From: a virus
Taxonomy: Duplodnaviria; Heunggongvirae; Uroviricota; Caudoviricetes
DNA: 36,967 bases
Strand: one strand, 5' to 3'
Virus record (IMG/VR): IMGVR_UViG_2531839130_000014
The position numbers were made by a program, and so were the translations under genes. Positions 1 to 13,995 of this stretch are shown here, piece by piece; positions within the stretch are counted from its first letter, which is position 1, and each line of letters begins with the position of its first letter. The notes under the pieces were generated by a model. That model searched no databases. It was not told the DNA's origin and was given only the letters and a program-made list of their open reading frames with translations.

Positions 1-1236
1 CTACGATAGCCGCGCATTCAACATGGCTACCTGTTCGTCGTTCATGTCATCAATCCACATACCGTAAATTTCATACACCATCTGCGCAGTTTCATGTCCC
101 ATCTGGCTGGCTATAAATGCCGGGTTCGCTCCTGCCGTCAACAGCCAGCAGGCAAAAGTATGCCGCGTATGGTACGGATTACGGCGGCGAATACCAGCAC
201 GTTTTACTGCTGCATTCCACCTTGCCCCCAAACTGCTTACCGAGTAATAAGGTTTCTGTTTTCCGTTACACACCCTGGGCATGAAAACAAAATGCAGTTT
301 TTGCTTTTCGGTTCTGCCGTACTCCCGATGATAAAAGGTGATTTCGCTTTTGCGATGATGCCCGGTCAGTTTGTATTGCTCCTTCAGTGCTTCAAGAGCA
401 GGCTGCAGTAATGTTACCGTCCGGATCCCGGCATTTGTTTTTGGGGGACCGAACATATCCAGTATCGTCAGGTTTCTTCTGACATTCACAGTTCCCTTCT
501 CGAAATCCACATCCTCCCACGCCAGAGCTGCCAGTTCCCCGTGACGAAGCCCGGAGTAAACGGCAAATTTCCACAAGTTCTGGCTCTGTCCTTTTTCACT
601 TTCCATTAATGCATTGAATTCTGTTCTAGATAACGGATCTGGCTTTATTCTGTTTCGCTGTAATTTTTTTACTCCTTCAAATGGTTTGTTTGATATAAAT
701 CCCGACTGATAAGCAAAACGTAACAAAGAACAGAGCAGGGCGATATAGTTATCAACTGTGCGCACTGTTCTTCCTTTTTTGTTAGATCTTGGATTATCCA
801 GGTAAAGCGTTTCTCCATGCAACAGTTCATTCCGGTAATTTAAGATATCGCTATAACGAATATGTGATATCGGGGTACTTTCAGAAATTATTATCCTGAG
901 TGTTTTTAATTGTGATTTCGTTTTCTTCATTGTGTTTGTTGTTAACTCTGTCTCTTTAATTTTTGCCCAGATATCACAAAGCTCCCCGAATGTTTTTATG
1001 ACCCTCGTTGTCACCATTTTTGCCCCAGTGCTGGACTGGGGAAAACGTCTTAAATACTCGAATTCGCCGGAATTGATTTCGTGAACTATCAACGCTCTTA
1101 AATTCCCGGCTTTTTTAATATTACTGTTAGTAACCTCCCAGCCTTTCAATGTTTCCCGACATCGTTTTCCTCGAAACATGAACCAGATGCGAATGTATTT
1201 ACCCCGAATCTCGACACCTGTTGGTAATTTAGACAT
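1..1236 (-). CDS. intR: Phage tyrosine integrase, Rac prophage IntR-like; complete 411 aa, stop codon at window positions 1-3
   Basis: 411-aa ORF whose N-terminus MSKLPTGVEIRGKYIRIWFMFRGKRCRETLKGWE matches recalled Rac IntR. The C-terminal region has tyrosine recombinase features (R..HxxR..Y region: NPYHTRHTFACWLLTAGANPAFIASQMGHETAQMVYEIYG). Confidence 0.9.
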   Translation of the reverse strand: MSKLPTGVEIRGKYIRIWFMFRGKRCRETLKGWEVTNSNIKKAGNLRALIVHEINSGEFEYLRRFPQSSTGAKMVTTRVIKTFGELCDIWAKIKETELTTNTMKKTKSQLKTLRIIISESTPISHIRYSDILNYRNELLHGETLYLDNPRSNKKGRTVRTVDNYIALLCSLLRFAYQSGFISNKPFEGVKKLQRNRIKPDPLSRTEFNALMESEKGQSQNLWKFAVYSGLRHGELAALAWEDVDFEKGTVNVRRNLTILDMFGPPKTNAGIRTVTLLQPALEALKEQYKLTGHHRKSEITFYHREYGRTEKQKLHFVFMPRVCNGKQKPYYSVSSLGARWNAAVKRAGIRRRNPYHTRHTFACWLLTAGANPAFIASQMGHETAQMVYEIYGMWIDDMNDEQVAMLNARLS

Positions 1237-1237
1237 A

Positions 1238-1453
1238 TCATGAGTCTTTGATAAACTGATTTATCTTCGGATAGTTGTACCAGATAATCCCTCGCTTGCT
1301 GTCTGGCTTACCTAAAGGAGATACTCGTTTGAAGTGAAAGCCTTCCACCCAGCAATTCTGACGGTATGCTTCAATTTGTCTGGCCCCCAGACCAGTACGA
1401 AGCATCAGACCGTATTCAACCATCCACTCTTCATTAAAAATCACTTGTGCCAT
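1238..1453 (-). CDS. ydaQ: Putative excisionase / DNA-binding protein (YdaQ/XisR-like), start taken at internal ATG ([10 protein letters not shown]...)
   Basis: Small ORF immediately upstream of the integrase on the same strand, the typical xis position. The listed ORF begins at a TTG at 1477; the ATG at 1453 is the more likely start. Confidence 0.55.
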
Positions 1454-1552
1454 CGCATCACCTCTGGCGGGCGACAATATTAGACTGAAATTGACGCCCG
1501 ACGTTGATTATTAATAATCAGCTATGAAGTTTTAATTTGAATACAATGCAAC

Positions 1553-1741
1553 TCACGAGGACAGAAGTTTCTCGCAATTAAAATTTATCAGTTTTACTTT
1601 CTGCTCTCTGGAAACGCCTGCTTCTTTTTTCCCTGAGAGCATTTTTTCGCATTCTGATTTCGTTAATTTAGATTTTGAATATCTTGTCCAGTTAGTAGGT
1701 GTGCCACCTTCCTTTTCAATAGTGGCGGTAATTTTATACAT
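1553..1741 (-). CDS. Hypothetical small protein (YdaC-like by synteny)
   Basis: ORF between the excisionase-like gene and ralR. An ATG at 1739-1741 sits 2 nt upstream of the ralR stop; the longer listed ORF (to 1813) would overlap ralR by 80 nt. Confidence 0.4.
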   Translation of the reverse strand: MYKITATIEKEGGTPTNWTRYSKSKLTKSECEKMLSGKKEAGVSREQKVKLINFNCEKLLSS

Positions 1742-1928
1742 GAACACCTCCATTATTATTTCCAGTAGTTCGTTTATTCCATCTTGCAAGTGCTTCTTTT
1801 TCACTTCCACCATAACCGGTTCGGGATTCGCATCCGTTACACTTCGCTCGGTAATATCCTGAAATGGCTTTCACCGTTACTGATGGACAACCACAAAATG
1901 GACATGGTTTGACTTTTTCATACCGCAT
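1734..1928 (-). CDS. ralR: RalR (Lar) restriction-alleviation protein / type I toxin, small Cys-rich DNA-targeting protein
   Basis: Translation MRYEKVKPCPFCGCPSVTVKAISGYYRAKCNGCESRTGYGGSEKEALARWNKRTTGNNNGGVHV closely matches recalled Rac RalR, in the expected position upstream of recT. Confidence 0.75.
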   Translation of the reverse strand: MRYEKVKPCPFCGCPSVTVKAISGYYRAKCNGCESRTGYGGSEKEALARWNKRTTGNNNGGVHV

Positions 1929-1991
1929 TGTCTTTTCTCTCATAAAATAAAGTTTTGTTATGGCGGTGAGGCTACACCGCCATAGTAAATA

Positions 1992-3044
1992 TCAGGAGCC
2001 GATATATTCTGGTTTCATATCTGTCAGTGTCGTTTTATACGCCTCATATAATTCTCCCAGATGTGGTCGTGCAGCATTCAGCGTATTTTCCAGAGCAGTA
2101 AATTTTTGTTCTGCTTCCGGATCACCTGATGAAGGCAGGTCATTTATCATCTTCTCAATACGGGCAATAGCATTGAGACGGTGATGACGCTGAACCACTT
2201 TTCCTTTAAGTTCCGTATAGAGAGCGCCAAGTGTATTTTTATGCTCTTCCACTTCCTGCCGAAGTGCTGTTGTTTCTTCGGTGCTTTGTGCCTGCTCAAT
2301 ACGTTCACGGAAAGCACTGATCCAGTTTTCCCCGGCATCCTGCTCAATAATTGTTGTTTCACGTTCCGTACGGCAGGCGGATGTGTTTTTATGTTCCTGA
2401 ACCGGATTAATGATTTTTTCCTGTGGTTCGTCCAGTTCGTCCCGGGTGTACACTCCAAGAATCACTTCAGGGCTATAAAGGCGCGCCCAGCGTTTCAGTG
2501 CCAGATAGGCAAGCTGCTGACGAGGATCATCGGCCCATAACGTTGAGTTACGTGTTCTGGCCTGCGCCAGAAGTAACTCCAGTATGCGTGGTTTGCTCTC
2601 TCCGCGTAGTGTTGCCTGGACGCGAACTCCGATCCCGTTTTCATCTGCCAGCTTCCAGCCAGGTACACGATATTCTTTCCCTTTGTCGTTCTTCCTGATT
2701 TCAAATTTCCCGATAATTTTTTCCCACGGCCCGAACCAGTCATATTCAATACGCCCGGTTAGCGGCCCACGAGTACTGATTACGGCATTAACCAGTTGCG
2801 CTTCATATCCGAGCACACCATTCACAACGAAAGTTTTCTGAGCTACTGCGTAAGGATTCATTTGCCACTGCATCGCCTGCATGGTGATGGCCATGCAGTC
2901 TGATGGATTTCCTCGGAGGTGTTCCGGTACAGTAGCCATGCCGGAAGCCATTACCTGAGAAAACGTCTGAATTGCAGCCAGAGACTGAGGGCTGAACACC
3001 GCAACATTAGAGTTAATATTTTCTTGTTGAGTTAATTCGTTCAT
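1992..3044 (-). CDS. Putative phage single-strand annealing protein (RecT/Red-beta superfamily), not the K-12 RecT allele
   Basis: 350-aa ORF directly downstream of the exonuclease gene on the same strand (recE-recT-type operon). Start at 3044 is preceded by GAGGAAGGA. The central region (NPYAVAQKTFVVNGVLGYEAQLVNAVI...) resembles the annealing-protein core; family assignment is by context and pattern, not a search. Confidence 0.5.
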   Translation of the reverse strand: MNELTQQENINSNVAVFSPQSLAAIQTFSQVMASGMATVPEHLRGNPSDCMAITMQAMQWQMNPYAVAQKTFVVNGVLGYEAQLVNAVISTRGPLTGRIEYDWFGPWEKIIGKFEIRKNDKGKEYRVPGWKLADENGIGVRVQATLRGESKPRILELLLAQARTRNSTLWADDPRQQLAYLALKRWARLYSPEVILGVYTRDELDEPQEKIINPVQEHKNTSACRTERETTIIEQDAGENWISAFRERIEQAQSTEETTALRQEVEEHKNTLGALYTELKGKVVQRHHRLNAIARIEKMINDLPSSGDPEAEQKFTALENTLNAARPHLGELYEAYKTTLTDMKPEYIGS

Positions 3045-3055
3045 TGTGTCCTTCC

Positions 3056-4728
3056 TCAGATGCTCAGTGCTTCAAGACGGCGAAGATCAAAGTCGTTTAA
3101 TTCGTCGGTATAACTTTCGGTAATCGGTGCTGGCCAGTTGTTTGTCTCCAGCGCTTCGTTTATCTGTCGTAGCGTCCGGCGATATTCCTGTCGACCAAGT
3201 TCCAGGAGTTCCTGCGAGGCTTCCACGACTGCCACCCAGTGATAGCCAGCATCTTTGTTGACGAAGATCCAGAAAAATTTGTCCAGGTTTGCCACATCGC
3301 AATACATTGCGGCGCTGAGGTGATAATCACGCTCAATAATTTCACGGTGCAGGCGATCTTTAAGTCGTTCCTGCCGCACATAACCGAGGCTGACTGACTT
3401 CACGTCAGCGCAAATGCTTTCGTATGGCAGCCGGATTTCGATATCAGGACGGACCCTAATTTCCAGCCCGGTTTCTTCATCAAACCCGAAATAGCTGATT
3501 TCAGATTTGCGATCCGGGTGGTTGAGTAGCCTTGCTGCATCGGTATTGTTTTGCAGTGCCGCGTGAATATTTTTTGCCTGTTCATACATATCCGGACTGA
3601 TAAACGTTTTCCCGGCGTTTTCTTCTTGCTGGCGTTTTTGCCAGTCCTCCAGTGTCACCAGGTCCGGGCGAATTTTCCGTGCGATTTCGGTTAATTGCTC
3701 TTTTGTGCCACTGATGTTGTAAGGCAAAGATTTAGCACGTTCTTTTTTTGCCAGTTCTGGGTCTACAGTTTCAATTTGATCCAGAAGCTGCTCCCGTGCT
3801 CCACTGGTTTTCAACAGAGGAGGGAGGCTTGCGTTGTATTCTTTAATACAGGCTTTCATTGCTGATGCTGTGTGTTTTTCCCCCTCAGGAATACGCCGAA
3901 ATTCCTCCGGAAGCGAACCGTAAAGGATGCCTGTTTCTTCGGCCCCAGCGCTTACCGACAGTGGCTGTATAAGAGTGCTGTTGTAGCTTTCGATCCACTC
4001 TTTCATCTGCTCTGGTGTCATCAGTGATGGCAGACTGGCATTATGTTTTTTAATGATGGTGATCAGTTCGTTAGAAGTAGTAACCACATATTCAGGAACC
4101 GGTACCGGAATGGCATATTCATCAGCGAATTTATCCGTTTCCAGAACATAGCTGTGAATGATCCGCCCACGCAGCAATGCATCACTTTCCTCGTTCGGGA
4201 TAGTTCCGGCAATGTGCCGCCCGTGGTAATACATCAGACTGATGCGGGCATCCTTCAGCATTGTGCTGCTTATTCCGTTGGCGGAGTGATAAACCTCGTT
4301 CGGGAGGTTTTCATAGCGACCAGGCTCGAAATATGACGGCCACATGATTTCAGTTGCTACATGAGCTGACGCTTCACCAGTTTCATCACTGCAATCGTGA
4401 TGCGGATGGTTGCCAGCGTTCTCCTTGTGCGGATGTTCAGCGCCTTCCATTTCCTCCGGATCTTTTTCCTGAGATTCATCCAGATTTTCTCCATCGAATG
4501 TTTCCTGGTATGTTGCGTCGCCCATCACCGCACCACAGTCAGGGCAGTTATCCCCGCCAGTCTGACCGCAGGCATTGCAGACTATTTCCGGTTCCCGTTG
4601 CACTACTGGCTCAGGTTGTTTCACATCCTGACTGGTTTTTTCCGTTTCTGGCTGGTTCTGGTTCACAGAATCGCGAGTCTGGATCCCCTTAAACCATTTC
4701 GGATCGTTCGGGTCGCTAATTCCGTCAA
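3056..4728 (-). pseudogene. RecE-like PD-(D/E)XK exonuclease (exodeoxyribonuclease VIII family), C-terminal 557 codons; 5' part apparently removed by the Mu-like insertion
   Basis: The frame is open from the stop at 3056 right up to the Mu-like end at 4729 with no ATG in the first ~70 flanking codons. The first four codons of the listed ORF (GTG start at 4741) are Mu-end sequence, and the next in-frame stop upstream lies inside Mu DNA (4775-4777). Nuclease-like motifs are present (EVYHSANGISSTMLKD, PDIEIR...ADVKS) plus a CxxC...CxxC cluster. Confidence 0.55.
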
Positions 4729-4900
4729 TGTATTGATTCACTTGAAGTACGAAAAAAACCGGGAGGACATTGGATTATTCGGGATTTGGCGGGATTAGAT
4801 TTAGTGGGGCTTGCAAGCCTGTAGGACAGATTTTAGCCGTTACATCTTGAAACGCGAAAGATTGTTGGAAACAGCTTTTGATTCATTAAAGACACGAAAA
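4729..4900. repeat. Mu-type left end (attL) with transposase-binding end sites (L1 at about 4733-4755; further consensus-like sites near 4826-4850 and 4879-4900)
   Basis: Matches to the MuA end-site consensus TGNTTCAYTNNAARYRCGAAAR: TGATTCACTTGAAGTACGAAAAA at the terminus and TGATTCATTAAAGACACGAAAA at 4879-4900. The 5 bp flanking the end (4724-4728, GTCAA) fit the Mu target consensus N-Y-S-R-N. Confidence 0.8.
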
Positions 4901-5067: not shown

Positions 5068-5592
5068 TTATACAGCTTTCTTTACATCGTTTTCTCTTAC
5101 AGGGAAATTATGTTCTTTGCCTTCATACTGAGACAAAATCTCTCTCACTTTTTCCGGTGGTAATGCCTGAAGAGTTTGCAGGGTTTTCTGTTGCTCCACA
5201 GTAATCCCTAATGCCTCTAATGCCTTATCTTTACTGACAATTGTAGGCATAAGTCCTTTAATCCCTGCCACACGAATGATCTCCACAGCTGCGGCCTGCT
5301 CATCTGGTGTTAAGAAGCTCATTGCATAAATTAGCCTCTCATCAACTGTATGGGCGATTGATGTATGCACTGGTTTATCAGAAAGTGAGGCTCCTTTAAT
5401 GGCCCTGCGTGTTTCTTCTGGCAGACTGTTGATGTGATACTCATAAGCGACACCTTTCCCACCGTGACGCTGACGTTTTACCCAATCTTCCGCCACAGCT
5501 TTCCTGGTAATGTTAGTCGCCAACTTTGGTACACCAGGCATCCCTTCCAGCTCTTTCGCATTAAACCATTCTTTGATTTCAAAAGACATCAT
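5068..5592 (-). CDS. c: Mu-type lysogenic repressor (c / Repc-like)
   Basis: Leftward 174-aa ORF next to the left end. Its N-terminus ([60 protein letters not shown]) is clearly homologous to the N-terminus of the adjacent transposase ([59 protein letters not shown]), the known Mu repressor/MuA enhancer-binding relationship. Confidence 0.85.
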   Translation of the reverse strand: MMSFEIKEWFNAKELEGMPGVPKLATNITRKAVAEDWVKRQRHGGKGVAYEYHINSLPEETRRAIKGASLSDKPVHTSIAHTVDERLIYAMSFLTPDEQAAAVEIIRVAGIKGLMPTIVSKDKALEALGITVEQQKTLQTLQALPPEKVREILSQYEGKEHNFPVRENDVKKAV

Positions 5593-6006: not shown

Positions 6007-7995
6007 ATGAAAGAATGGTATACAGCAAAAGAGTTGCTCGGTTTGGCAGGTTTACCAAAGCAAGCCACTAACATTACACGTAAGGCACAAAGAGAAGGCT
6101 GGGAGTTCAGACAGGTTGCAGGGACTAAAGGTGTATCATTTGAATTCAATATCAAATCATTCCCTGTCGCATTACGTGCTGAAATTCTGTTGCAACAAGG
6201 GAGAATTGAAACAAGCCTGGGCCGTTTTGAAATCGCCCGCCCCACGCTGGAAGCCCATGATTATGATCGTGAGGTGCTGTGGAGCAAATGGGATAAAGCC
6301 AGCGATTCCCAGCGCAGACTTGCTGAAAAATGGTTGCCTGCGGTTCAGGCTGCAGACGAAATGCTGAACCAGGGGATTTCAACGAAAACGGCTTTTGCGA
6401 CCGTTGCAGGGCATTACCAGGTCAGCGCATCCACTTTGCGGGACAAGTATTACCAGGTACAGAAGTTTGCGAAGCCTGACTGGGCGGCTGCACTTGTTGA
6501 TGGACGTGGTGCATCCCGTCGCAATGTTCACAAAAGTGAATTTGACGAGGATGCCTGGCAGTTTCTGATTGCAGATTATCTGCGACCGGAAAAACCCGCC
6601 TTCCGCAAATGTTATGAGCGTCTGGAACTGGCAGCCCGCGAGCATGGCTGGAGTATTCCCTCCCGTGCCACGGCCTTTCGCCGGATTCAGCAACTGGACG
6701 AGGCAATGGTTGTTGCCTGTCGTGAAGGTGAACATGCACTGATGCATCTGATACCGGCACAGCAGCGAACTGTGGAACACCTGGACGCCATGCAGTGGAT
6801 CAACGGCGACGGTTATCTGCATAACGTCTTTGTACGCTGGTTTAACGGTGATGTGATCCGCCCGAAAACATGGTTCTGGCAGGATGTGAAAACCCGAAAA
6901 ATTCTGGGCTGGCGCTGCGATGTGAGCGAGAACATTGATTCAATTCGCCTCTCGTTCATGGATGTTGTGACTCGCTACGGTATCCCGGAGGATTTTCACA
7001 TCACCATTGATAACACCCGTGGTGCTGCGAATAAATGGCTGACGGGAGGCGCGCCCAATCGCTACCGCTTTAAGGTGAAAGAAGACGATCCAAAGGGATT
7101 GTTTTTACTGATGGGTGCGAAAATGCACTGGACAAGCGTTGTTGCCGGTAAAGGCTGGGGCCAGGCAAAACCTGTTGAACGTGCTTTCGGTGTTGGTGGG
7201 CTTGAGGAATACGTTGATAAGCATCCGGCACTGGCTGGCGCATATACGGGGCCAAATCCGCAGGCAAAACCTGATAACTATGGCAACCGCGCTGTTGATG
7301 CAGAGCTGTTTCTGAAAAACCTTGCCGAAGGTGTGGCGATGTTCAATGCCAGAACAGGCCGTGAAACAGAAATGTGCGGGGGCAAACTCTCGTTTGATGA
7401 TGTTTTCGAGCGTGAATACGCCAGAACGATTGTGCGTAAGCCAACCGAAGAACAAAAACGGATGCTGTTACTGCCTGCCGAGGCGGTGAACGTTTCACGC
7501 AAAGGCGAGTTTACGCTTAAAGTTGGCGGCTCCCTTAAAGGCGCGAAAAACGTTTATTACAACATGGCATTAATGAATGCCGGCGTGAAAAAAGTTGTGG
7601 TCAGGTTTGATCCGCAGCAGCTACACAGCACGGTTTATTGTTACACCCTGGACGGTCGGTTTATCTGTGAAGCGGAATGTCTGGCACCTGTTGCGTTTAA
7701 TGATGCTGCGGCAGGCCGTGAATATCGCCGCCGCCAGAAACAACTGAAATCTGCGACGAAAGCAGCGATTAAGGCACAGAAACAAATGGATGCACTGGAA
7801 GTGGCAGAGCTGCTGCCGCAGATAGCCGAACCTGAAGCACCAGAATCACGAATTGTCGGCATTTTCCGGCCTTCCGGTAATACGGAACGGGTGAAGAATC
7901 AGGAGCGTGATGATGAATACGAAACTGAGCGTGATGAATATCTGAATCATTCGCTGGATATTCTGGAACAGAACAGACGTAAAAAAGCCATTTAA
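6007..7995 (+). CDS. A: MuA-type DDE transposase
   Basis: 662-aa ORF (Mu A is about 663 aa). It has the repressor-like N-terminal DNA-binding domain, a central catalytic region and a basic C-terminal tail, in the Mu position after ner. Confidence 0.93.
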
Positions 7996-8033: not shown

Positions 8034-8972
8034 ATGAATATTTCCGATATTCGCGCAGGACTGCGCACGCTTGTAGAAAATGAAGAAACCACCTTTAAAC
8101 AAATTGCTCTTGAGAGCGGACTTTCTACCGGAACTATCAGTAGTTTTATCAATGATAAGTACAACGGGGATAACGAGCGTGTTTCACAAATGCTGCAACG
8201 CTGGCTGGAAAAATATCATGCAGTTGCAGAACTACCTGAACCGCCCCGCTTTGTGGAAACGCAGACGGTAAAACAAATCTGGACAAGTATGCGTTTTGCC
8301 AGCCTGACTGAAAGTATTGCTGTTGTATGTGGCAATCCTGGTGTGGGCAAAACCGAAGCGGCCCGTGAATATCGCCGCACCAATAACAATGTCTGGATGA
8401 TCACCATTACGCCATCCTGCGCCAGTGTTCTGGAATGTCTTACTGAACTGGCGTTTGAGCTGGGAATGAATGACGCACCACGCCGTAAAGGGCCACTTTC
8501 CCGTGCCCTGCGACGTCGCCTTGAAGGTACACAGGGGCTGGTTATCATCGACGAAGCTGATCATCTTGGTGCCGAAGTTCTGGAAGAACTCCGCCTGTTA
8601 CAGGAATCAACCCGCACTGGCCTTGTGCTGATGGGAAATCACCGGGTTTATTCAAATATGACGGGGGGTAACAGAACGGTTGAATTTGCCCGTCTGTTTT
8701 CCCGTATTGCAAAGCGCACTGCAATTAATAAAACAAAAAAAGCCGATGTAAAAGCTATTGCGGATGCCTGGCAGATTAACGGCGAAAATGAACTGGAGTT
8801 ATTACAGCAGATTGCGCAGAAACCAGGTGCGCTTCGCATTCTGAATCATTCACTTCGCCTTGCCGCCATGACGGCTCACGGTAAAGGTGAGCGTGTTAAC
8901 GAAGATTATCTGCGTCAGGCTTTCCGTGAATTAGACCTGGACGTTGATATTTCAACGCTGCTGCGTAATTAA
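8034..8972 (+). CDS. B: MuB-type AAA+ ATPase, transposition target-DNA activator
   Basis: 312-aa ORF with Walker A GNPGVGKTEA and Walker B-like LVIIDEADHL. N-terminus MNISDIRAGLRTLVENEETTFKQIALESGLSTG matches recalled Mu B. Confidence 0.9.
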   Translation: MNISDIRAGLRTLVENEETTFKQIALESGLSTGTISSFINDKYNGDNERVSQMLQRWLEKYHAVAELPEPPRFVETQTVKQIWTSMRFASLTESIAVVCGNPGVGKTEAAREYRRTNNNVWMITITPSCASVLECLTELAFELGMNDAPRRKGPLSRALRRRLEGTQGLVIIDEADHLGAEVLEELRLLQESTRTGLVLMGNHRVYSNMTGGNRTVEFARLFSRIAKRTAINKTKKADVKAIADAWQINGENELELLQQIAQKPGALRILNHSLRLAAMTAHGKGERVNEDYLRQAFRELDLDVDISTLLRN

Positions 8973-8987
8973 GAAGGAGAAGAAATT

Positions 8988-9215
8988 ATGATGGCCCGAA
9001 ATATAAAAATGGCAACGGATGCGCAGAACTGGTTACAGGCGCGCGGGAGTCATGTAAATGAATCATATCTCGGCGTGGCGCGTCCGATTCTTGAAATCAC
9101 TTACCCACCGGTGGAACTGGTAAAAAACGCGGTCAGGATTATGGAGCATAAGTCCGGGGTGGCCCGTTCTGTATGGACGGCCCGTCTTAATGGTTGTCAG
9201 ATTATCTGGAGATAA
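8988..9215 (+). CDS. Small early protein in the kil position (Kil-like by synteny only)
   Basis: 75-aa ORF directly after B with AAGGAGAAG upstream. Mu encodes the 74-aa Kil at this position; no sequence-level recognition. Confidence 0.35.
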
Positions 9216-9217
9216 CG

Positions 9218-9439
9218 ATGTGTATTAAAGCTGAAAAATATATTGAATGGGTTAAACACTGTCAGTGCCACGGGGTGCCGCTGACGACATATAAATGCCC
9301 CGGATGCGGTGAACAGATTATGACGCAATGCTCACACGAAAAGGAAATTTGGGATTCCCTGACATGTTGTCCGTGGTGCAGCGCAGTTTTCTTTAAGCAG
9401 GTAAAAGGCGCGAAGGTAAAAGCCAGCGCAGTTATTTAG
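9218..9439 (+). CDS. Hypothetical Cys-rich (zinc-binding-like) early protein
   Basis: ORF with CxC...CPGCGEQ...CCPWC pattern. Start chosen at the internal ATG after GGAGATAACG; the longer listed ORF would overlap the upstream gene. Confidence 0.4.
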   Translation: MCIKAEKYIEWVKHCQCHGVPLTTYKCPGCGEQIMTQCSHEKEIWDSLTCCPWCSAVFFKQVKGAKVKASAVI

Positions 9440-9459
9440 AATCAATAAGGAGAAGAAAA

Positions 9460-9729
9460 ATGGCAAAAGTAATCTTTGAATTTAACAATACAAGAAATAT
9501 TGAGTTTCAGGAAAATGGAGGTTTTGCCGTAAATATGAATGTGCGACTGGAAGAATCCTCACCTGAGGACCAGACCGGGCCACATGATGTAATGGCAGGC
9601 ATCATCAAGAGCATGGCTCCTGAAATCATTAAAAAAGCGACCGAGGAGTTGTTGAAATCAGCCAGGGAGCTTGGGCTGGAAGCCGAGGGGGAATTATTCA
9701 GCTATAACCCGAATACAGCCAGACATTAA
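9460..9729 (+). CDS. Hypothetical early protein
   Basis: 89-aa ORF with AAGGAGAAG about 8 nt upstream, co-oriented in the early operon. Confidence 0.5.
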   Translation: MAKVIFEFNNTRNIEFQENGGFAVNMNVRLEESSPEDQTGPHDVMAGIIKSMAPEIIKKATEELLKSARELGLEAEGELFSYNPNTARH

Positions 9730-9749
9730 TTCGCAAAGGAACGCTGACA

Positions 9750-10169
9750 ATGAACGTCAAAATCCGAAATGAAATTCAGGCATTAATCCGAATTCAGGAA
9801 CGCAATAACAACGGTGGTGAATTACGCGAGTTTATTTGCGCCCGGAAAGTTGATGATTGTGGTGAAAAGACTTACCTGATTGCTTTCGACCATTACAGCA
9901 TTTGTGCGCGTTATTGCGGCGAAAGCATATCCCGCGCCATTGCATTTGGCGGTGCGTTCAACGTGGATTTATGGGAGTACGTCATGGACCGGGAATACAT
10001 CTGCGCATCAGACCCTGAGGCCCGTGAAATGTGGCAGCGTATCTGGCGCGATTACCGGTTAATGGCAAAAGGCTGGGCGCGCTGCTGTTATTCCTCGCTT
10101 GCCCTGAAAGCGGTTCAGTTATCGCTGCGGCATATTCCGGCATCACTGCGCGAGCCTCTGCTGTACTGA
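9750..10169 (+). CDS. Hypothetical early protein
   Basis: 139-aa ORF tightly packed in the early operon; no recognisable domain. Confidence 0.45.
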   Translation: MNVKIRNEIQALIRIQERNNNGGELREFICARKVDDCGEKTYLIAFDHYSICARYCGESISRAIAFGGAFNVDLWEYVMDREYICASDPEAREMWQRIWRDYRLMAKGWARCCYSSLALKAVQLSLRHIPASLREPLLY

Positions 10170-10469
10170 ATGGTGGCTGACATGAAGTGTAATCGTAAGC
10201 GCTGGTCACGCGAAGACCGGGAATTTATCGAAGCCAACGTCGGGAAAATGACCGTTGAAGAAATGGCGGAAAAACTGAAAGTCGCCACAACCGCCCTCCG
10301 GGCACATGCCAGAAGGCACGGAATATCATTGTGTGTATACCGAATCAGTGAACACGACAAATATTTATGTCGTGAACTTTATAAAGAAGGGCTGGATATT
10401 CATGTCATTGCCCGAAAGATGGAATTAAGCAATCGAGCTGTATCCAGCATTGTATACAGCGGATATTAA
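10170..10469 (+). CDS. Hypothetical early protein with possible helix-turn-helix
   Basis: 99-aa ORF whose ATG abuts the upstream stop (TGAATG). Segment MTVEEMAEKLKVATTALRAHARRHG resembles an HTH. Confidence 0.45.
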   Translation: MVADMKCNRKRWSREDREFIEANVGKMTVEEMAEKLKVATTALRAHARRHGISLCVYRISEHDKYLCRELYKEGLDIHVIARKMELSNRAVSSIVYSGY

Positions 10470-10488
10470 TTAACAGGAGCTTTAATTT

Positions 10489-11013
10489 ATGGCTAAACCA
10501 GCAAAACGTATCAAGAGTGCCGCAGCGGCTTATGTGCCACAAAACCGCGATGCGGTGATTACCGATATTAAACGCATCGGGGATTTACAGCGCGAAGCAT
10601 CACGTCTGGAAACGGAAATGAATGATGCCATCGCGGAAATTACGGAGAAATTTGCGGCCCGGATTGCACCGATTAAAACCGATATTGAAACCCTTTCAAA
10701 AGGCGTTCAGGGATGGTGTGAAGCGAACCGCGACGAACTGACGAACGGCGGCAAAGTGAAGACGGCGAATCTTGTCACCGGTGATGTATCGTGGCGGGTC
10801 CGTCCACCATCAGTAAGTATTCGTGGTATGGATGCAGTGATGGAAACGCTGGAGCGTCTTGGCCTGCAACGCTTTATTCGCACGAAGCAGGAAATCAACA
10901 AGGAGGCGATTTTACTGGAACCAAAAGCCGTCGCAGGTGTTGCCGGAATTACGGTTAAATCGGGAATTGAAGATTTTTCCATTATTCCGTTTGAACAGGA
11001 AGCCGGTATTTAA
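10489..11013 (+). CDS. gam: Gam, Mu-type host-nuclease inhibitor (Ku-like DNA-end-binding protein)
   Basis: 174-aa ORF starting MAKPAKRIKSAAAAYVPQNRDAVITDIKRIGDLQREASRLETEMNDAIAEI, matching recalled Mu Gam; AGGAG RBS at 10475-10479. Confidence 0.85.
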   Translation: MAKPAKRIKSAAAAYVPQNRDAVITDIKRIGDLQREASRLETEMNDAIAEITEKFAARIAPIKTDIETLSKGVQGWCEANRDELTNGGKVKTANLVTGDVSWRVRPPSVSIRGMDAVMETLERLGLQRFIRTKQEINKEAILLEPKAVAGVAGITVKSGIEDFSIIPFEQEAGI

Positions 11014-11111
11014 TACCACCATTAATATTTAATTAATTCACATTCTTTTAATTATGGCGCGATGCGTCAGGGGATTGCTCGCGCCTGAAACAGATTACTG
11101 AGGAATAAAAC

Positions 11112-11651
11112 ATGGTTGATGCAAAAATTCTGAATGGTGTCAGCACATTATTACGGGCTTACGGACGCCTGACCTGCGGGGTTCTGGCTGAAAAAATGCA
11201 GATGCCACCCTCCGCAATGGTGTATTTCCTGCGTGATGCGGTTGATGCCGGAGTGCTCACCGAATGCAACGGATTTTATGACGTTCCGCGCCCGCGTCAG
11301 ACGCCGCCGGTAAGACGAAACGCAACTGAGCAGCCTGCTGTTGATGATGCGGTGTGGTGCAACTGGCGTCGCTCATTACCCTGGGTGGAAGGTAATACCA
11401 TCCCCGCACTGGCAAAAGAGTTTGCGACAGGCGTACTGACCTGTGAGTCCGTTCACATCGTTGCAGAAGTGGATGACGAGATGTGCAAACAGGGAATGCC
11501 CCGTTTTGTGATGGCTTATATCGATATCCGGCTGGGGCGGTTTATTTGCAGTTCCAGCGCCTGGAATATCACCGACCATGTACTGCGTTATCTCATCATT
11601 GATTTTTCATCAGCACCGGGTGTGGTGCAGGAGGCTGGTTGTGAAATTTGA
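11112..11651 (+). CDS. Hypothetical early protein
   Basis: 179-aa ORF with GAGGAATAAAAC upstream; no recognisable domain. Confidence 0.45.
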   Translation: MVDAKILNGVSTLLRAYGRLTCGVLAEKMQMPPSAMVYFLRDAVDAGVLTECNGFYDVPRPRQTPPVRRNATEQPAVDDAVWCNWRRSLPWVEGNTIPALAKEFATGVLTCESVHIVAEVDDEMCKQGMPRFVMAYIDIRLGRFICSSSAWNITDHVLRYLIIDFSSAPGVVQEAGCEI

Positions 11652-12336
11652 AGACTGGGGTATTGATAAAAGTTGTGGCCGGGACGTCCTGGTGTACAAA
11701 AACTGTAGCGTGATTGAAGGAGAAGATGCCTGGCAGGTTCTGGATATACTTCGTTCTGCTTTATGCAGAGCTGGCTATGTTACGCCAGCGTCAGTTAATG
11801 GCGGAACTGCCACTACCTGTATCAGAAAGCAACTTTATAGTTTTTATACAGCCTACAACCGATGGTTAAAGAATGGGGCAATGGAGACGGGCGATGATGT
11901 ATTTACCCGGGCTGCCGGATTATGTGCCAATGCTTACGATTATTTTGAATCAACCGGTGCAGACAGTGAAGCCGCATTAGAACAATTACATGCGGACTTT
12001 ATCTCAGCAGGGCTGAATGAGAAATTGCCATTTAACCGGGACAGCAAACATTACAGAAACGAAAGCAAATTGGCCAGATGCCACCTGAATTCAGCACGTG
12101 TGGCATGGGTTGAAAAACACTGTATTAGTTCTGATTCAGAAATAACGGGGAAAAAGACAGTCGGTGAAAATTCGTATTCGTGGCTGGGGACATTCACCAC
12201 GGTGAAACAGGAATGCCCGACCTGCGGTAATGAAAACCCTGAATATCTGAAAGAGTGCCCTCATTGTGGTGGGCAGAAATGCAACCACTGCGATATGGGC
12301 GATGACACGGCGTGCATGAATTGTGAAGGTGAGTGA
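11641..12336 (+). CDS. Hypothetical early protein with C-terminal zinc-ribbon-like Cys cluster (start uncertain)
   Basis: Long ORF (listed from 11578) ending CPTCGNENPEYLKECPHCGGQKCNHCDMGDDTACMNCEGE. A GTG at 11641 overlapping the upstream stop is a plausible start. Confidence 0.4.
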   Translation: MKFEDWGIDKSCGRDVLVYKNCSVIEGEDAWQVLDILRSALCRAGYVTPASVNGGTATTCIRKQLYSFYTAYNRWLKNGAMETGDDVFTRAAGLCANAYDYFESTGADSEAALEQLHADFISAGLNEKLPFNRDSKHYRNESKLARCHLNSARVAWVEKHCISSDSEITGKKTVGENSYSWLGTFTTVKQECPTCGNENPEYLKECPHCGGQKCNHCDMGDDTACMNCEGE

Positions 12337-12337
12337 T

Positions 12338-12649
12338 ATGAATAATGGTGTATTTTCAAAATCAGAAGAGCTTGCCGCCCTGCTGATTGCCGGTGGTTTG
12401 CCGAAAAAAGAAGTGCATGACTTTGTGAATTTTGTATATGAGCCGTCTCATGAAAAAGCTATTGATGAAGTCATGGCGTACCGGTTTGGCATTATTGCTG
12501 AGTCACTGAGTCCTCACTGGATTATTGAAAATCTCCGCACTATTGCTGATGGTAACGATAAAGTGGCGGCTGTCGCCGCCCTTGATGTGCTGCAACGTAT
12601 GAACCGGGAACTATTCAATCCCGAGTTTCTTTTTAAGAAACGAGGTTAA
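12338..12649 (+). CDS. Hypothetical early protein
   Basis: About 103-aa ORF; the ATG at 12338 overlaps the upstream stop region. Confidence 0.45.
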   Translation: MNNGVFSKSEELAALLIAGGLPKKEVHDFVNFVYEPSHEKAIDEVMAYRFGIIAESLSPHWIIENLRTIADGNDKVAAVAALDVLQRMNRELFNPEFLFKKRG

Positions 12650-13027
12650 CCACTGTTTGCCGACGTCTGTTACGAGCGTCATCGGGGCGTCGGCAAGGTC
12701 CTGTTTTATGCGCTCAAGAATGGGTTTTTGATGTAGTGCTTTCGCAAAATCATGACCATCTTGTGTAAGTCTGACACTGGTGCCTGAATATGAATATCCG
12801 AGGCTTGTTGGGGTGAGACCAATGCTTTTTGCGGTGCCTGTTTCCAGATATCTGTTGCTGATAAAACCATTTTCAACCAGCAACAGAAGATGGAAAACCA
12901 GCTTCTGATGGCTGTCGCTGTGCCGCTGAGAACGCTCCCAGCCGACATCTTCCAGTCGAATGAATGCGGTGTCGGCCTCCAGAAAAACATCAAATATTCT
13001 GGCTATCTCGTCATAATCAATTTTCAT
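12611..13027 (-). CDS. Hypothetical protein encoded antisense to the early operon (possible DUF2513-like; candidate moron)
   Basis: 138-aa minus-strand ORF with balanced, globular-looking composition (MKIDYDEIARIFDVFLEADTAFIRLEDVGW...). AAGGA lies about 8 nt upstream of its ATG on the minus strand. Its start is 30 bp from the gemA start and its 3' end overlaps the upstream plus-strand gene convergently. Confidence 0.5.
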   Translation of the reverse strand: MKIDYDEIARIFDVFLEADTAFIRLEDVGWERSQRHSDSHQKLVFHLLLLVENGFISNRYLETGTAKSIGLTPTSLGYSYSGTSVRLTQDGHDFAKALHQKPILERIKQDLADAPMTLVTDVGKQWLTSFLKKKLGIE

Positions 13028-13057
13028 ATCTCATTCCTTAATATGAGAGGTGAGCAA

Positions 13058-13609
13058 ATGAATCGCACATCGCTTATTAAATTAATCCATGTCGCCCGTC
13101 GGGAGCTACAACTCGACGATGACACTTACCGCGCCTTTCTGATGCAGAAAACGGGCAAAACCAGTTGCCGCGAGCTGACGGTTACGCAACTGGAACAGAC
13201 GCTCGATGCAATGAAAGAACGCGGCTTTAAGAAGCTGAATAAACATCCACGTCGCCGCTTTAAGGAACATGTCACGCCCCGCGAGAAGGTGTACAAAGTC
13301 TGGCAGCAGATGGCAGAAGACGGTTTTATTACCGATGGCGGTGATGTGGCGCTGGATAAATATGTTCAGCGCCTGACCGCGAAACGCAACGGCGGACAGG
13401 GCGTTTCCACACTGGCGTGGTGTCATGGCGACACGCTGCTGACAGTCCTCGAAACACTCAAGCAGTGGCACATCCGCTGTATTCGTGAAGCCTTTTCCCG
13501 TCACGGGCTTCCATTGCCGGTCAGTCCGTCCGGTCGTGAACTGCGCGGCTATGATGCCATGACGGCGGCTTATGCCCATGCCAGAAAGACGCGGAGGATG
13601 GCACAATGA
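13058..13609 (+). CDS. gemA: GemA-like protein (Mu gp16 family)
   Basis: ORF starting MNRTSLIKLIHVARRELQLDDDTYRAFLMQKTGKTSCRELT with GAGAGG RBS at 13045-13050, immediately upstream of mor as in Mu. Confidence 0.75.
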   Translation: MNRTSLIKLIHVARRELQLDDDTYRAFLMQKTGKTSCRELTVTQLEQTLDAMKERGFKKLNKHPRRRFKEHVTPREKVYKVWQQMAEDGFITDGGDVALDKYVQRLTAKRNGGQGVSTLAWCHGDTLLTVLETLKQWHIRCIREAFSRHGLPLPVSPSGRELRGYDAMTAAYAHARKTRRMAQ

Positions 13610-13995
13610 CGGAAGATTTATTTGGTGATTTGCAGGATGACACCATCCTGGCACATCTTGACAATCCCGCAGAGGATACGTCACGCTTTCCGGCACTGCT
13701 GGCGGAGCTGAACGATTTACTACGCGGGGAATTGTCCCGGCTGGGTGTTGATCCTGCCCATTCACTGGAGATTGTTGTGGCTATCTGTAAGCATCTGGGC
13801 GGCGGTCAGGTCTACATTCCACGCGGTCAGGTTCTGGACTCGCTGATTCGGGATTTGCGTATCTGGAATGATTTTAACGGTCGCAACGTCAGCGAACTGA
13901 CCACCCGTTATGGTGTCACTTTCAATACGGTTTACAAGGCCATTCGCCGGATGCGACGGCTGAAATACCGCCAGTACCAGCCCTCACTTCTGTAA
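13606..13995 (+). CDS. mor: Mor, middle-operon transcriptional activator (Mor/C family)
   Basis: 129-aa ORF (Mu Mor is 129 aa). Its C-terminal half (FNGRNVSELTTRYGVTFNTVYKAIRR) parallels that of the downstream C protein (FNGRNMEELRRQYRLSQPQIYQIIARQRK). Confidence 0.85.
   Translation: MTEDLFGDLQDDTILAHLDNPAEDTSRFPALLAELNDLLRGELSRLGVDPAHSLEIVVAICKHLGGGQVYIPRGQVLDSLIRDLRIWNDFNGRNVSELTTRYGVTFNTVYKAIRRMRRLKYRQYQPSLL

What the first reader, a model, noticed from the sequence alone, without database searches (positions are those of the whole stretch)
9218..12649. Block of uncharacterised early-region genes, several Cys-rich, flanking gam
About eight tightly packed ORFs between B and gemA show no recognisable family apart from Gam. 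Two carry zinc-binding-like Cys clusters (CPGCGEQ...CCPWC; CPTCG...CPHCGG...C..C) and one has an HTH-like segment. In Mu this semi-essential region carries host-takeover functions, and it is the usual place for anti-defence genes.
Basis: partly seen in the sequence, partly recalled or inferred. Interest (0 to 1): 0.45.

Follow-up and report, generated by a model that had tools for sequence, protein, structure and literature searches.

The report
Mu/D108 semi-essential early gene block
This is the long-known but still functionally unexplained "semi-essential" early gene block of a Mu/D108-type prophage of E. coli: most of its genes are identical to those of phage D108, and only the stretch after gene 11 holds swapped-in cassettes, one of them a three-part protein ending in a conserved eight-cysteine zinc module.

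Summary
Window 9218-12649 carries eight tightly packed plus-strand genes with ribosome-binding sites, no internal stops in relatives, and pN/pS of 0.12-0.36 for seven of them (the eighth, orf103, is poorly sampled). The cysteine clusters and the HTH are real and conserved.

The block is not new. It is the semi-essential early (SEE) region of a Muvirus prophage, colinear with Mu and D108. gp6, gp7, gp8, gp9 and Gam are 100% identical to the D108 proteins, and gp11 is 92% identical to Mu gp11.

Differences from Mu and D108 start after gp11:
- A 530-nt cassette replaces gp12 with unrelated sequence that reads in frame into the gp13 zinc module, giving a 231-aa protein.
- orf103 replaces gp14.
- A minus-strand DUF2513-like gene replaces gp15.

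All three cassettes occur in other E. coli Mu-like prophages, and the same gene order occurs in two IMG/VR contigs.

Among 54 related loci, kil, gam, gp9, gp11 and gp8 are near-core and the other slots are shuffled (36 architectures among the 55 loci, window included).

Profile, PDB-sequence, AlphaFold/Foldseek and PADLOC searches gave no function beyond Gam, HTH and zinc-ribbon folds. The anti-defence reading is untested. Interest is low to moderate.

The parts
8988..9215 (+). kil (context, just upstream of the finding): Mu/D108 Kil, septation inhibitor
   Evidence: 100% identical to D108 Kil; phrog_2743 'Kil protein', E 2.8e-43; present in 53/54 related loci
9218..9439 (+). gp6 (old name E5), 73 aa, basic, zinc-ribbon-like CPGC...CPWC
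   Evidence: 100% identical to D108 gp6; phrog_3786, E 2e-40; sub-threshold FmdB zinc-ribbon hit TIGR02605, E 0.0011; C27/C30/C51/C54 conserved in 11-12 of 12 homologues; accessory, in 23/54 loci
9460..9729 (+). gp7 (E6), 89 aa, acidic (pI 4.8), D108 allele of a multi-allelic slot
   Evidence: 100% identical to D108 gp7 but only 18/73 identities to Mu gp7 and 35/89 to vB_YpM_5 gp7; Mu and D108 alleles fall in different PHROGs; at least 5 alleles seen in the slot; weak RraB hit E 0.0098, below cut-off
9750..10169 (+). gp8 (E7), 139 aa, family restricted to enterobacterial Mu-like prophages; possible C-H-C-C metal site
   Evidence: 100% identical to D108 gp8; phrog_3690, E 4e-97; only 24 clusters in 5.8 billion proteins, all Enterobacterales where a source names the organism; C30/H48/C52/C56 kept in 32-38 of 38; in 40/54 loci
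10170..10469 (+). gp9 (E8), 99 aa, basic, HTH DNA-binding protein with two HTH-like segments
   Evidence: 100% identical to D108 gp9; phrog_323 'transcriptional regulator, D5-like', E 7e-29; sub-threshold Pfam HTH hits at residues 22-49 and 69-95; in 48/54 loci
10489..11013 (+). gam: Ku-like DNA-end-binding protein that keeps RecBCD off phage DNA ends
   Evidence: Pfam PF07352, E 4e-42, 144 bits against a 28.3-bit cut-off; 100% identical to Mu and D108 Gam; function as described in PMC12407980
11112..11651 (+). gp11, 179 aa: N-terminal winged-helix-like domain, variable linker, beta-rich Gp11_C domain. Its last ~5 codons already belong to the downstream cassette.
   Evidence: Pfam PF25754 Gp11_C, E 3e-39; 92% identical to Mu gp11; 223 clusters; AlphaFold mean pLDDT 60.7 with helices 4-17, 22-29, 33-45 and strands 113-162; homology to Mu/D108 ends at 11634
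11635..12164 (+). 530-nt cassette that replaces Mu gp12 and is unrelated to it
   Evidence: blastn breakpoints against Mu, D108, vB_YpM_5 and two E. coli prophages; shared only with NZ_OZ040490 (94%); hhalign against Mu gp12 gives probability 0.1%
11641..12336 (+). 231-aa three-module protein: N-terminal part (res 1-52, 11641-11796), ~100-aa helical domain of unknown function (res 63-161, 11827-12123), Mu gp13-type 8-Cys zinc module (res 175-231, 12163-12333)
   Evidence: phrog_6418 matched full length, E 2e-166; identical protein P0001 has 138 member sequences; the same 231-aa gene is annotated in NZ_OZ040490; in frame, with gp13's own RBS and ATG replaced; central domain has 559 representative clusters and no Pfam family; pLDDT above 90 for res 60-135
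12338..12649 (+). orf103, acidic helical protein in the gp14 position; absent from Mu and D108
   Evidence: phrog_1988, E 6e-52; 88/99 identical to vB_YpM_5 'gp14a', no match in Mu or D108; in 23/54 loci
12611..13027 (-). 138-aa DUF2513-like gene on the opposite strand, lying in the cassette 12590-13057 that replaces Mu gp14/gp15. Convergent with orf103, overlapping it by 39 nt. Mostly outside the finding.
   Evidence: phrog_585, E 3e-31; Pfam DUF2513 only 15.9 bits against a 29.6-bit cut-off; the corresponding 417-nt gene in NZ_CP151071, where this segment is 99.3% identical in DNA, is named 'DUF2513 domain-containing protein' by RefSeq; in 8/54 loci

Best explanation
The block is the semi-essential early (SEE) region of a D108-like Mu prophage. 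Shown: it lies between B/kil and gemA/mor on the early-operon strand, it is colinear with Mu and D108, and gp6, gp7, gp8, gp9 and Gam are 100% identical to D108's proteins.

From the literature: these genes are part of the long early transcript started at Pe. They are therefore made right after induction or infection, and at a low level in the lysogen.

Inferred: except for Gam, which binds DNA ends and blocks RecBCD, the products work as small non-enzymatic binders rather than enzymes. No catalytic domain is detectable. What can be recognised are zinc ribbons (gp6, the gp13 module, perhaps gp8), HTH or winged-helix domains (gp9, gp11 N-terminus) and short helical domains. The near-core set (kil, gam, gp9, gp11, gp8) most likely tunes host DNA transactions and phage gene expression for transposition-replication.

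Shown: the other slots (gp6, gp7, and everything between gp11 and gemA) are cassette-exchange sites where unrelated small genes replace one another by recombination in the conserved flanks. In this prophage one such exchange put a foreign N-terminal part (an N-terminal piece plus a widespread ~100-aa helical domain) in frame with the gp13 eight-cysteine module. The result is one 231-aa protein in place of separate gp12 and gp13.

What these cassettes do is not shown. My best guess is host-specific accessory functions: counter-defence, or modulation of host repair and replication proteins.
For: - Identity and colinearity with Mu and D108.
- Gam: Pfam at 144 bits.
- Real coding genes: pN/pS 0.12-0.36, no internal stops, RBS at each start.
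- No enzymatic or defence family.
- No related solved structure by sequence.
- No related solved structure by fold.
- BFVD returns only uncharacterised phage proteins.
- Core versus accessory split and 36 architectures among 55 loci.
- Cassette breakpoints at 11634/11635, 12164/12165, 12589/12590 and 13057/13058.
- In-frame fusion with loss of gp13's own start.
- The fusion recurs: P0001 has 138 members, it is annotated in NZ_OZ040490, and it is present in L011, L012, L025, L028 and L032.
- A stand-alone 129-aa form of the central domain sits in the same gp11-to-gemA slot in other Mu-like prophages.
- The gp13 module has 8 invariant Cys behind N-terminal parts of 0-215 aa.
Against: - The functional part is inference from the absence of catalytic signatures and from fold hints of modest confidence (mean pLDDT 69.9 and 60.7).
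- Zinc binding is not shown.
- The 54 loci are the best Gam matches plus loci I fetched for other reasons. They are not independent, so the frequencies are rough. Genes outside my reference set are invisible in the architecture strings.
- gp13 occurs without gp12 in L017 and L022, so the fusion does not prove that gp12-slot proteins and gp13 work together.
Confidence: 0.75

Rival explanations
1. Anti-defence island: the uncharacterised ORFs, above all those in the variable slots (gp6, gp7, the 231-aa fusion, orf103), are inhibitors of host immune systems, expressed early next to the RecBCD blocker Gam.
For: - The proteins are small, expressed early and lack enzymatic domains.
- Gene content turns over quickly at fixed slots, with non-homologous replacements, as in known anti-defence loci.
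- Neighbour Gam antagonises RecBCD, and GamMu and GemA homologues determine sensitivity to Gabija in a Pseudomonas Mu-like phage (PMC12407980).
- The central domain of the fusion also sits in the accessory early region of lambdoid prophages.
Against: - No similarity to a protein with a known function, anti-defence or otherwise, turned up in any library available here.
- The conserved members gp8, gp9 and gp11 behave like core genes, not arms-race genes.
- pN/pS is well below 1.
- Nothing was tested functionally, and no dedicated anti-defence library was at hand.
Confidence: 0.25
2. Phage-internal helpers and regulators: the conserved members (gp9, gp11, perhaps gp8) are DNA-binding factors that adjust Mu replication rate, immunity or early-to-middle timing. 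These are the classical Arm, Cim and Lig/Gem phenotypes that genetics mapped to this region (my own recollection of the older Mu literature, not checked here).
For: - gp9 has HTH signatures.
- The gp11 model has a three-helix winged-helix-like N-domain whose best, non-significant, matches are Lrp/AsnC, MarR, MntR and BirA regulators.
- gp9, gp11 and gp8 are present in 48, 44 and 40 of 54 loci.
- gemA and mor, both regulatory, follow directly.
Against: - The fold matches are not significant (best E 0.24, TM 0.23).
- No target sites were identified.
- This reading does not explain the variable cassettes.
Confidence: 0.3
3. Lysogen-benefit or exclusion genes: part of the block, especially the opposite-strand DUF2513-like gene and perhaps orf103, is expressed from the prophage and protects the host against other phages or otherwise benefits it.
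For: - The DUF2513-like gene is transcribed against the early operon, has its own RBS (AAGGA), and travels as a separate cassette found in 8/54 loci.
- Low-level Pe transcription in lysogens, and the idea that some SE genes benefit the host, are in PMC3820752.
Against: - No PADLOC hit.
- No sigma-70-like promoter was found for the minus-strand gene.
- The plus-strand genes sit in a lytic operon.
Confidence: 0.15
4. The ORFs, or the 231-aa fusion, are artefacts: chance reading frames, or a frameshift or assembly error joining gp12 and gp13.
For: In Mu and D108, gp12 and gp13 are separate overlapping genes, so a fusion could look like an error.
Against: - The sequence upstream of the gp13 module is not gp12 at all.
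- The same 231-aa protein is found in 138 member sequences and in independent assemblies.
- Diverged copies keep the frame, with pN/pS 0.36.
- All ORFs have strong PHROG matches.
Confidence: 0.02

Closest known systems
Semi-essential early (SEE) region of Escherichia phages Mu and D108 (genes 6-15, formerly E5-E15)
   Same: Same position, strand and order between B/kil and gemA/mor. gp6, gp7, gp8, gp9 and Gam are 100% identical to D108, and gp11 is 92% identical to Mu.
   Different: gp12 is replaced by unrelated sequence fused to gp13. gp14 is replaced by orf103. gp15 is replaced by a DUF2513-like minus-strand gene.
Mu gp13 (60 aa, phrog_5584)
   Same: The C-terminal 56 residues of the 231-aa protein are 51-53/56 identical to Mu and D108 gp13, with all eight Cys.
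   Different: Here it is not a separate gene. Its RBS and ATG are gone and it is the C-terminal domain of a larger protein. Such fusions were seen in 7 of 24 modules surveyed.
Mu-like prophages of E. coli and Salmonella carrying a 129-aa protein (P0004) as the only gene between gp11 and gemA
   Same: Same ~100-aa helical domain (about 60% identity) in the same slot.
   Different: Stand-alone, with no N-terminal extension and no zinc module.
Modular small early proteins of lambdoid prophages (region between the replication genes and ninR/Q, e.g. DUF551 fusions)
   Same: The ~100-aa domain recurs there, fused to other small domains such as DUF551 (P0008). The theme is the same: shuffled small domains of unknown function in a delayed-early accessory region.
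   Different: Different phage type and partner domains; 42-50% identity only.
DnaJ-type CxxCxGxG and double zinc-ribbon domains
   Same: Four CxxC pairs in about 40 residues; weak Pfam hits to DnaJ_CXXCXGXG, Zn_Ribbon_1 and DZR (E 0.014-0.039); the Foldseek top hits to the C-terminus are small zinc fingers.
   Different: All hits are below the family cut-offs and not significant. The spacing is much tighter than in DnaJ. No chaperone context.

Membership tests
Mu/D108 SEE region | Located between transposition genes A/B (plus kil) and gemA/mor, on the same strand | tested here: met
   B 8034-8972, kil 8988-9215, block 9218-12649, gemA 13058-13609, mor 13606-13995
Mu/D108 SEE region | Colinear and homologous with Mu/D108 genes 6-11 and containing gam | tested here: met
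   Window 8900-11634 aligns without break to D108 at 98%; protein identities 92-100%
Mu/D108 SEE region | Dispensable for plaque formation but affecting growth ('semi-essential') | not testable with these tools
   Needs deletion mutants. The literature describes the region this way (PMC3820752, PMC8705779).
Phage_Mu_Gam (PF07352) | Score above the Pfam gathering cut-off over the full domain | tested here: met
   144.1 bits against 28.3; residues 21-166 match profile positions 2-148 of 149
Gp11_C (PF25754) | Score above the Pfam gathering cut-off | tested here: met
   133.7 bits against 27; residues 90-166
Mu gp12 family (phrog_2314; Pfam Phage_Mu_Gp12 in newer releases) | Sequence or profile similarity of the gp12-slot protein to Mu gp12 | tested here: not met
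   No local alignment to Mu, D108 or YpM_5 gp12; different PHROGs; hhalign probability 0.1%
Mu gp13 family (phrog_5584) | C-x2-C-G-N ... C-P-x-C ... C-x2-C-D-M-G-D-D-x2-C-x2-C module with eight conserved Cys | tested here: met
   phrog_5584, E 1e-38 on residues 197-252 of the 252-aa maximal ORF (= residues 176-231 of the 231-aa protein); all 8 Cys invariant in 13 sequences
Mu gp13 family (phrog_5584) | Stand-alone 60-aa gene with its own start | tested here: not met
   gp13's RBS and ATG are replaced and the frame is continuous with the upstream cassette
Zinc ribbon (FmdB family TIGR02605) for gp6 | Score above the curated cut-off; two CxxC pairs conserved | tested here: inconclusive
   19 bits against a 31.3-bit cut-off, but the four Cys are conserved in 11-12 of 12 homologues; metal binding not testable
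RraB (PF06877) for gp7 | Score above the Pfam gathering cut-off | tested here: not met
   16.9 bits against 23.3, E 0.0098, half of the profile only; no RraB chain among PDB sequence hits
DUF2513 (PF10711) for the minus-strand gene | Score above the Pfam gathering cut-off | tested here: inconclusive
   15.9 bits against 29.6 in the local Pfam copy. RefSeq names the corresponding gene in NZ_CP151071 'DUF2513 domain-containing'; that segment is 99.3% identical in DNA.
Known anti-phage defence systems (PADLOC-DB 2.0) | Any component model matched | tested here: not met
   Only two chance-level hits to gp9 (E about 0.01); none for the other nine proteins
Known anti-defence protein families | Homology to a characterised inhibitor of a defence system | not tested
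   No dedicated anti-defence library was available. PHROG, Pfam, NCBIfam, PDB and BFVD searches gave no such name except Gam as 'host nuclease inhibitor'.

The most novel reading that the evidence does not exclude
The stretch between gp11 and gemA of Mu-like phages is a dedicated counter-defence cassette site. In this reading the gp13 eight-cysteine module is a shared docking domain for one host or phage partner, and it can be attached to interchangeable effector domains. The 231-aa protein would then be an undescribed modular inhibitor whose ~100-aa helical domain (559 representative clusters, no Pfam family, also found in lambdoid prophages) is a widespread and unrecognised anti-immune or host-modulating fold.
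Probability: 0.2. Interest if true: 0.6.

Novelty: already known. Interest (0 to 1): 0.25.

Why it matters
Mu is a model phage, yet about ten of its early genes still have no assigned function. This window does not change that, but the comparison helps choose which genes to test first.
- kil, gam, gp9, gp11 and gp8 are near-core.
- gp6, gp7 and everything between gp11 and gemA are exchangeable cassettes.
- gp13 is a portable eight-cysteine module that also occurs fused to unrelated N-terminal parts.
- The gp12-slot domain found here belongs to a large uncharacterised phage family.

If any of these prove to be counter-defence or host-repair modulators, Mu genetics would make the mechanism easy to study. 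As found, the block is an expected part of a D108-like prophage.

Tried and rejected
- Function by profile search: Pfam, PHROGs, NCBIfam and PADLOC on all ten proteins gave only Gam, Gp11_C, Kil, an HTH label for gp9 and sub-threshold zinc-ribbon hits.
- RraB-like gp7: one hit below cut-off and no support from PDB sequences. Not pursued with a structure because both prediction jobs went to the fusion protein and gp11.
- PDB sequence searches for gp7, gp8, gp9, gp11, the fusion and the DUF2513-like protein: nothing significant.
- AlphaFold plus Foldseek for the 231-aa protein: no PDB match below E 2. BFVD returned only uncharacterised phage proteins.
- AlphaFold plus Foldseek for gp11: mean pLDDT 60.7, best PDB E 0.24. 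The Lrp/AsnC-like architecture is a hint only.
- Distant homology between the new gp12-slot sequence and Mu gp12: rejected (hhalign probability 0.1%).
- gp12 and gp13 as an obligate pair, with the fusion as a Rosetta stone: weakened, because L017 and L022 have gp13 directly after gp11 with no gp12.
- Frameshift or assembly artefact for the fusion: rejected.
- RNA elements: only chance-level Rfam matches. Repeats are only shared RBS strings. No excess of promoter-like or terminator-like sites.
- Literature: no open paper assigns a function to Mu gp6-gp9 or gp11-gp15. 'DUF2513' returned no paper. A search on Mup locus tags returned only mouse urinary proteins.
- A structure model for gp8 was not attempted because its family is too shallow (24 clusters, mostly above 75% identity).

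Full report
**What the window is.**
Megablast of 9218-12649 finds Muvirus genomes only: D108 at 97.5%, Mu at 96%, plus SfMu and several Yersinia Mu-like phages. The annotated records show the same gene order: B, kil, 6, 7, 8, 9, gam, 11, 12, 13, 14, (15), gemA, mor.

The first 4728 bases of the window are not phage Mu but Rac prophage DNA (intR, xisR, ralR, recT, recE). So the window holds a Mu-like prophage inserted in recE of Rac and cut off at its right side. The repressor is at 5068-5592 (minus strand), A at 6007-7995 and B at 8034-8972.

**The observation.**
Eight plus-strand ORFs fill 9218-12649:
- gp6, 9218-9439
- gp7, 9460-9729
- gp8, 9750-10169
- gp9, 10170-10469
- gam, 10489-11013
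- gp11, 11112-11651
- a 231-aa ORF, 11641-12336
- orf103, 12338-12649

The 231-aa ORF starts at GTG 11641 behind GGAGG. The PHROG profile of 231 positions aligns from exactly that residue. Neighbours are separated by -11 to +20 nt, except for 98 nt between gam and gp11.

All eight match PHROG families at E 1e-29 or better. Diverged copies in related loci keep the frames open, and pooled pN/pS is 0.12-0.36. orf103 gives 0.78, but from only two almost identical sequences. These are real genes.

- In gp6, C27/C30/C51/C54 are kept in 11-12 of 12 distinct homologues down to 35% identity.
- In the C-terminal module of the 231-aa protein, all eight Cys are invariant in 13 sequences of 45-91% identity.

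The HTH ORF is gp9.

**How it compares with Mu and D108.**
gp6, gp7, gp8, gp9 and Gam are 100% identical to the D108 proteins. gp11 is 92% identical to Mu gp11. gp7 is the D108 allele: Mu carries an unrelated-looking protein of the same size in that slot (18/73 identities, a different PHROG).

Nucleotide homology to Mu and D108 runs unbroken from 8900 to 11634 and then stops. From there the layout is as follows.
- 11635-12164: a 530-nt segment shared only with an E. coli prophage in NZ_OZ040490 (94%).
- 12165-12347: homology to gp13 resumes.
- 12348-12589: present in vB_YpM_5 and several E. coli prophages, but not in Mu or D108.
- 12590-13057: shared only with a prophage in NZ_CP151071 (99.3%).
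- 13058 onward: gemA.

The prophage is therefore D108-like up to gp11, and a mosaic of cassettes known from other E. coli Mu-like prophages between gp11 and gemA.

**The gp12-slot/gp13 fusion.**
The new 530-nt segment includes the last few codons of gp11, a new RBS and a GTG start. It encodes sequence with no similarity to Mu gp12 (no local alignment; hhalign probability 0.1%).

It runs in frame into gp13, whose own RBS and ATG are replaced. The product has three modules:
- residues 1-52, found elsewhere in two small proteins;
- residues 63-161, a domain with 559 representative clusters at E ≤ 0.001, mostly stand-alone proteins of 100-110 aa;
- residues 175-231, the gp13 module.

The central domain has no Pfam family: 94 members were scanned and only zinc-ribbon hits to the tail appeared.

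The fusion is not an error. An identical protein represents 138 member sequences. RefSeq annotates the same 231-aa gene in NZ_OZ040490. It occurs in several independent contigs.

Context searches show the following.
- A 129-aa stand-alone form of the central domain is the only gene between gp11 and gemA in another lineage of Mu-like prophages.
- More distant relatives lie in the accessory early region of lambdoid prophages, one fused to DUF551.
- Another Mu-like prophage fuses the gp13 module to a different 215-aa N-terminal part.
- gp13 also occurs directly after gp11 with gp12 deleted, so gp12-slot proteins and gp13 are not obligate partners.

**Survey of related loci.**
I fetched 80 IMG/VR loci through Gam. 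Together with the annotated and context loci, I scored them by tblastn (at least 60% coverage) with a reference set of 25 proteins. Fifty-four loci besides the window contain both B and gemA.

| Gene or module | Loci (of 54) |
|---|---|
| kil | 53 |
| gam | 53 |
| gp9 | 48 |
| gp11 | 44 |
| gp8 | 40 |
| gp6 | 23 |
| orf103 | 23 |
| gp13 module (17 separate, 6 fused in these loci; the window's own module makes 7 fused of 24 scored) | 23 |
| gp7, D108 allele | 22 |
| gp7, vB_YpM_5 allele | 10 |
| gp7, Mu allele | 9 |
| gp7, two other alleles together | 7 |
| Mu-type gp12 | 16 |
| the new central domain | 14 |
| gp14 | 14 |
| gp15 | 13 |
| DUF5420 insert between gam and gp11 | 9 |
| DUF2513-like gene | 8 |

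The 55 loci, window included, fall into 36 architectures. The window's architecture recurs in L028 and L032.

The sample is biased and partly redundant, so the numbers are rough. The pattern is still clear: a near-core set plus a few slots where unrelated small genes replace one another.

**Function.**
Gam is the only protein with an established mechanism. It is a Ku-like dimer that binds DNA ends and blocks RecBCD loading (Pfam at 144 bits; description in PMC12407980). For the rest the results were these.
- PADLOC gave no family below E 0.01, only two weak gp9 hits near E 0.01.
- NCBIfam gave only sub-threshold zinc-ribbon and HTH or sigma-region-4 hits.
- PDB sequence searches found nothing significant.
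- The AlphaFold model of the fusion (mean pLDDT 69.9) has a confident helical core at residues 60-135 (pLDDT above 90) and a moderately confident zinc-ribbon tail. Foldseek found no PDB match below E 2 and only uncharacterised phage proteins in BFVD.
- The gp11 model (mean pLDDT 60.7) shows a three-helix winged-helix-like N-domain, a disordered variable linker and a beta-rich C-domain. The best PDB matches are Lrp/AsnC and MarR-type regulators, but none is significant (E 0.24 or worse).
- The gp8 family is confined to enterobacterial Mu-like prophages (24 clusters).

No open paper found here assigns functions to these genes. Two describe the region as largely unknown.

**Interpretation.**
Shown: this is the Mu/D108 SEE region. 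Its genes are real and conserved, it carries two or three zinc-type cysteine modules and at least one HTH protein, and the gp11-to-gemA stretch is a cassette-exchange site.

Inferred: the unknown products act as small binders of proteins or nucleic acids rather than as enzymes. The conserved ones serve the phage's own replication and regulation. The exchangeable ones serve host-specific accessory roles, with counter-defence as one plausible role.

**Novelty and score.**
The block rediscovers a feature known since the Mu early region was first sequenced, and five of its eight proteins are identical to D108's. The fusion protein and the cassette map are modest additions, and all of their parts already sit in public databases as hypothetical proteins. 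A Mu specialist would not be surprised. The value lies in choosing which genes to test first.

Noticed in passing
window 1-4728 (junction near 4729): The left flank is Rac prophage DNA (intR, xisR, ralR, recT, recE; 97.9% to many E. coli genomes). The Mu-like prophage is inserted inside recE, leaving a 561-aa truncated ORF at 3056-4741 on the minus strand. This is a prophage within a prophage, and it knocks out the Rac exonuclease VIII gene.
   Followed up: partly
window 12611-13027 (minus strand): A 138-aa DUF2513-like gene is transcribed against the early operon. It overlaps the 3' end of orf103 by 39 nt and has its own RBS. It belongs to a 468-nt cassette (12590-13057) that replaces Mu gp14/gp15 and is found in 8 of 54 related loci. 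No sigma-70-like promoter was found. It could be a prophage-expressed gene.
   Followed up: partly
window 11014-11111 (hairpin 11056-11086): The only sizeable intergenic gap of the block (98 nt, gam to gp11) is AT-rich and then holds a GC-rich hairpin, GGCGCGA...TCGCGCC, with no T-run after it (fold z-score -2.25). A DUF5420 gene lies between gam and gp11 in 9 of 54 related loci, including SfMu-type prophages.
   Followed up: partly
window 9750-10169 (gp8): gp8 has a conserved C30-x17-H48-x3-C52-x3-C56 pattern (kept in 32-38 of 38 homologues), while its other Cys vary.
   Followed up: partly
L017 6175-6895 and L022 6020-6740: In two IMG/VR Mu-like contigs gp12 is absent and gp11 (183 aa) is followed directly by the 60-aa gp13. 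So gp13 does not depend on a gp12-slot gene.
   Followed up: yes
L013 6001-6885; L015 6001-6654: Relatives of the ~100-aa central domain of the fusion lie in lambdoid prophages, between the replication genes and the ninR/Q region. One is fused to DUF551. This points to a widespread, unnamed early-gene domain of temperate enterobacterial phages.
   Followed up: partly
window 8967-8985 and 9440-9458: Nearly the same 19-nt string, AAT(T/C)AA(G/T)AAGGAGAAGAAA, precedes both kil and gp7. It is a shared strong RBS block, possibly a recombination joint for cassette exchange at the gp6 slot.
   Followed up: no
window 11634-11651: The cassette junction lies inside gp11. The last few codons of gp11 (…QEAGCEI, 179 aa instead of 176) travel with the downstream fusion cassette, as also seen in L005, L011 and L012.
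   Followed up: partly
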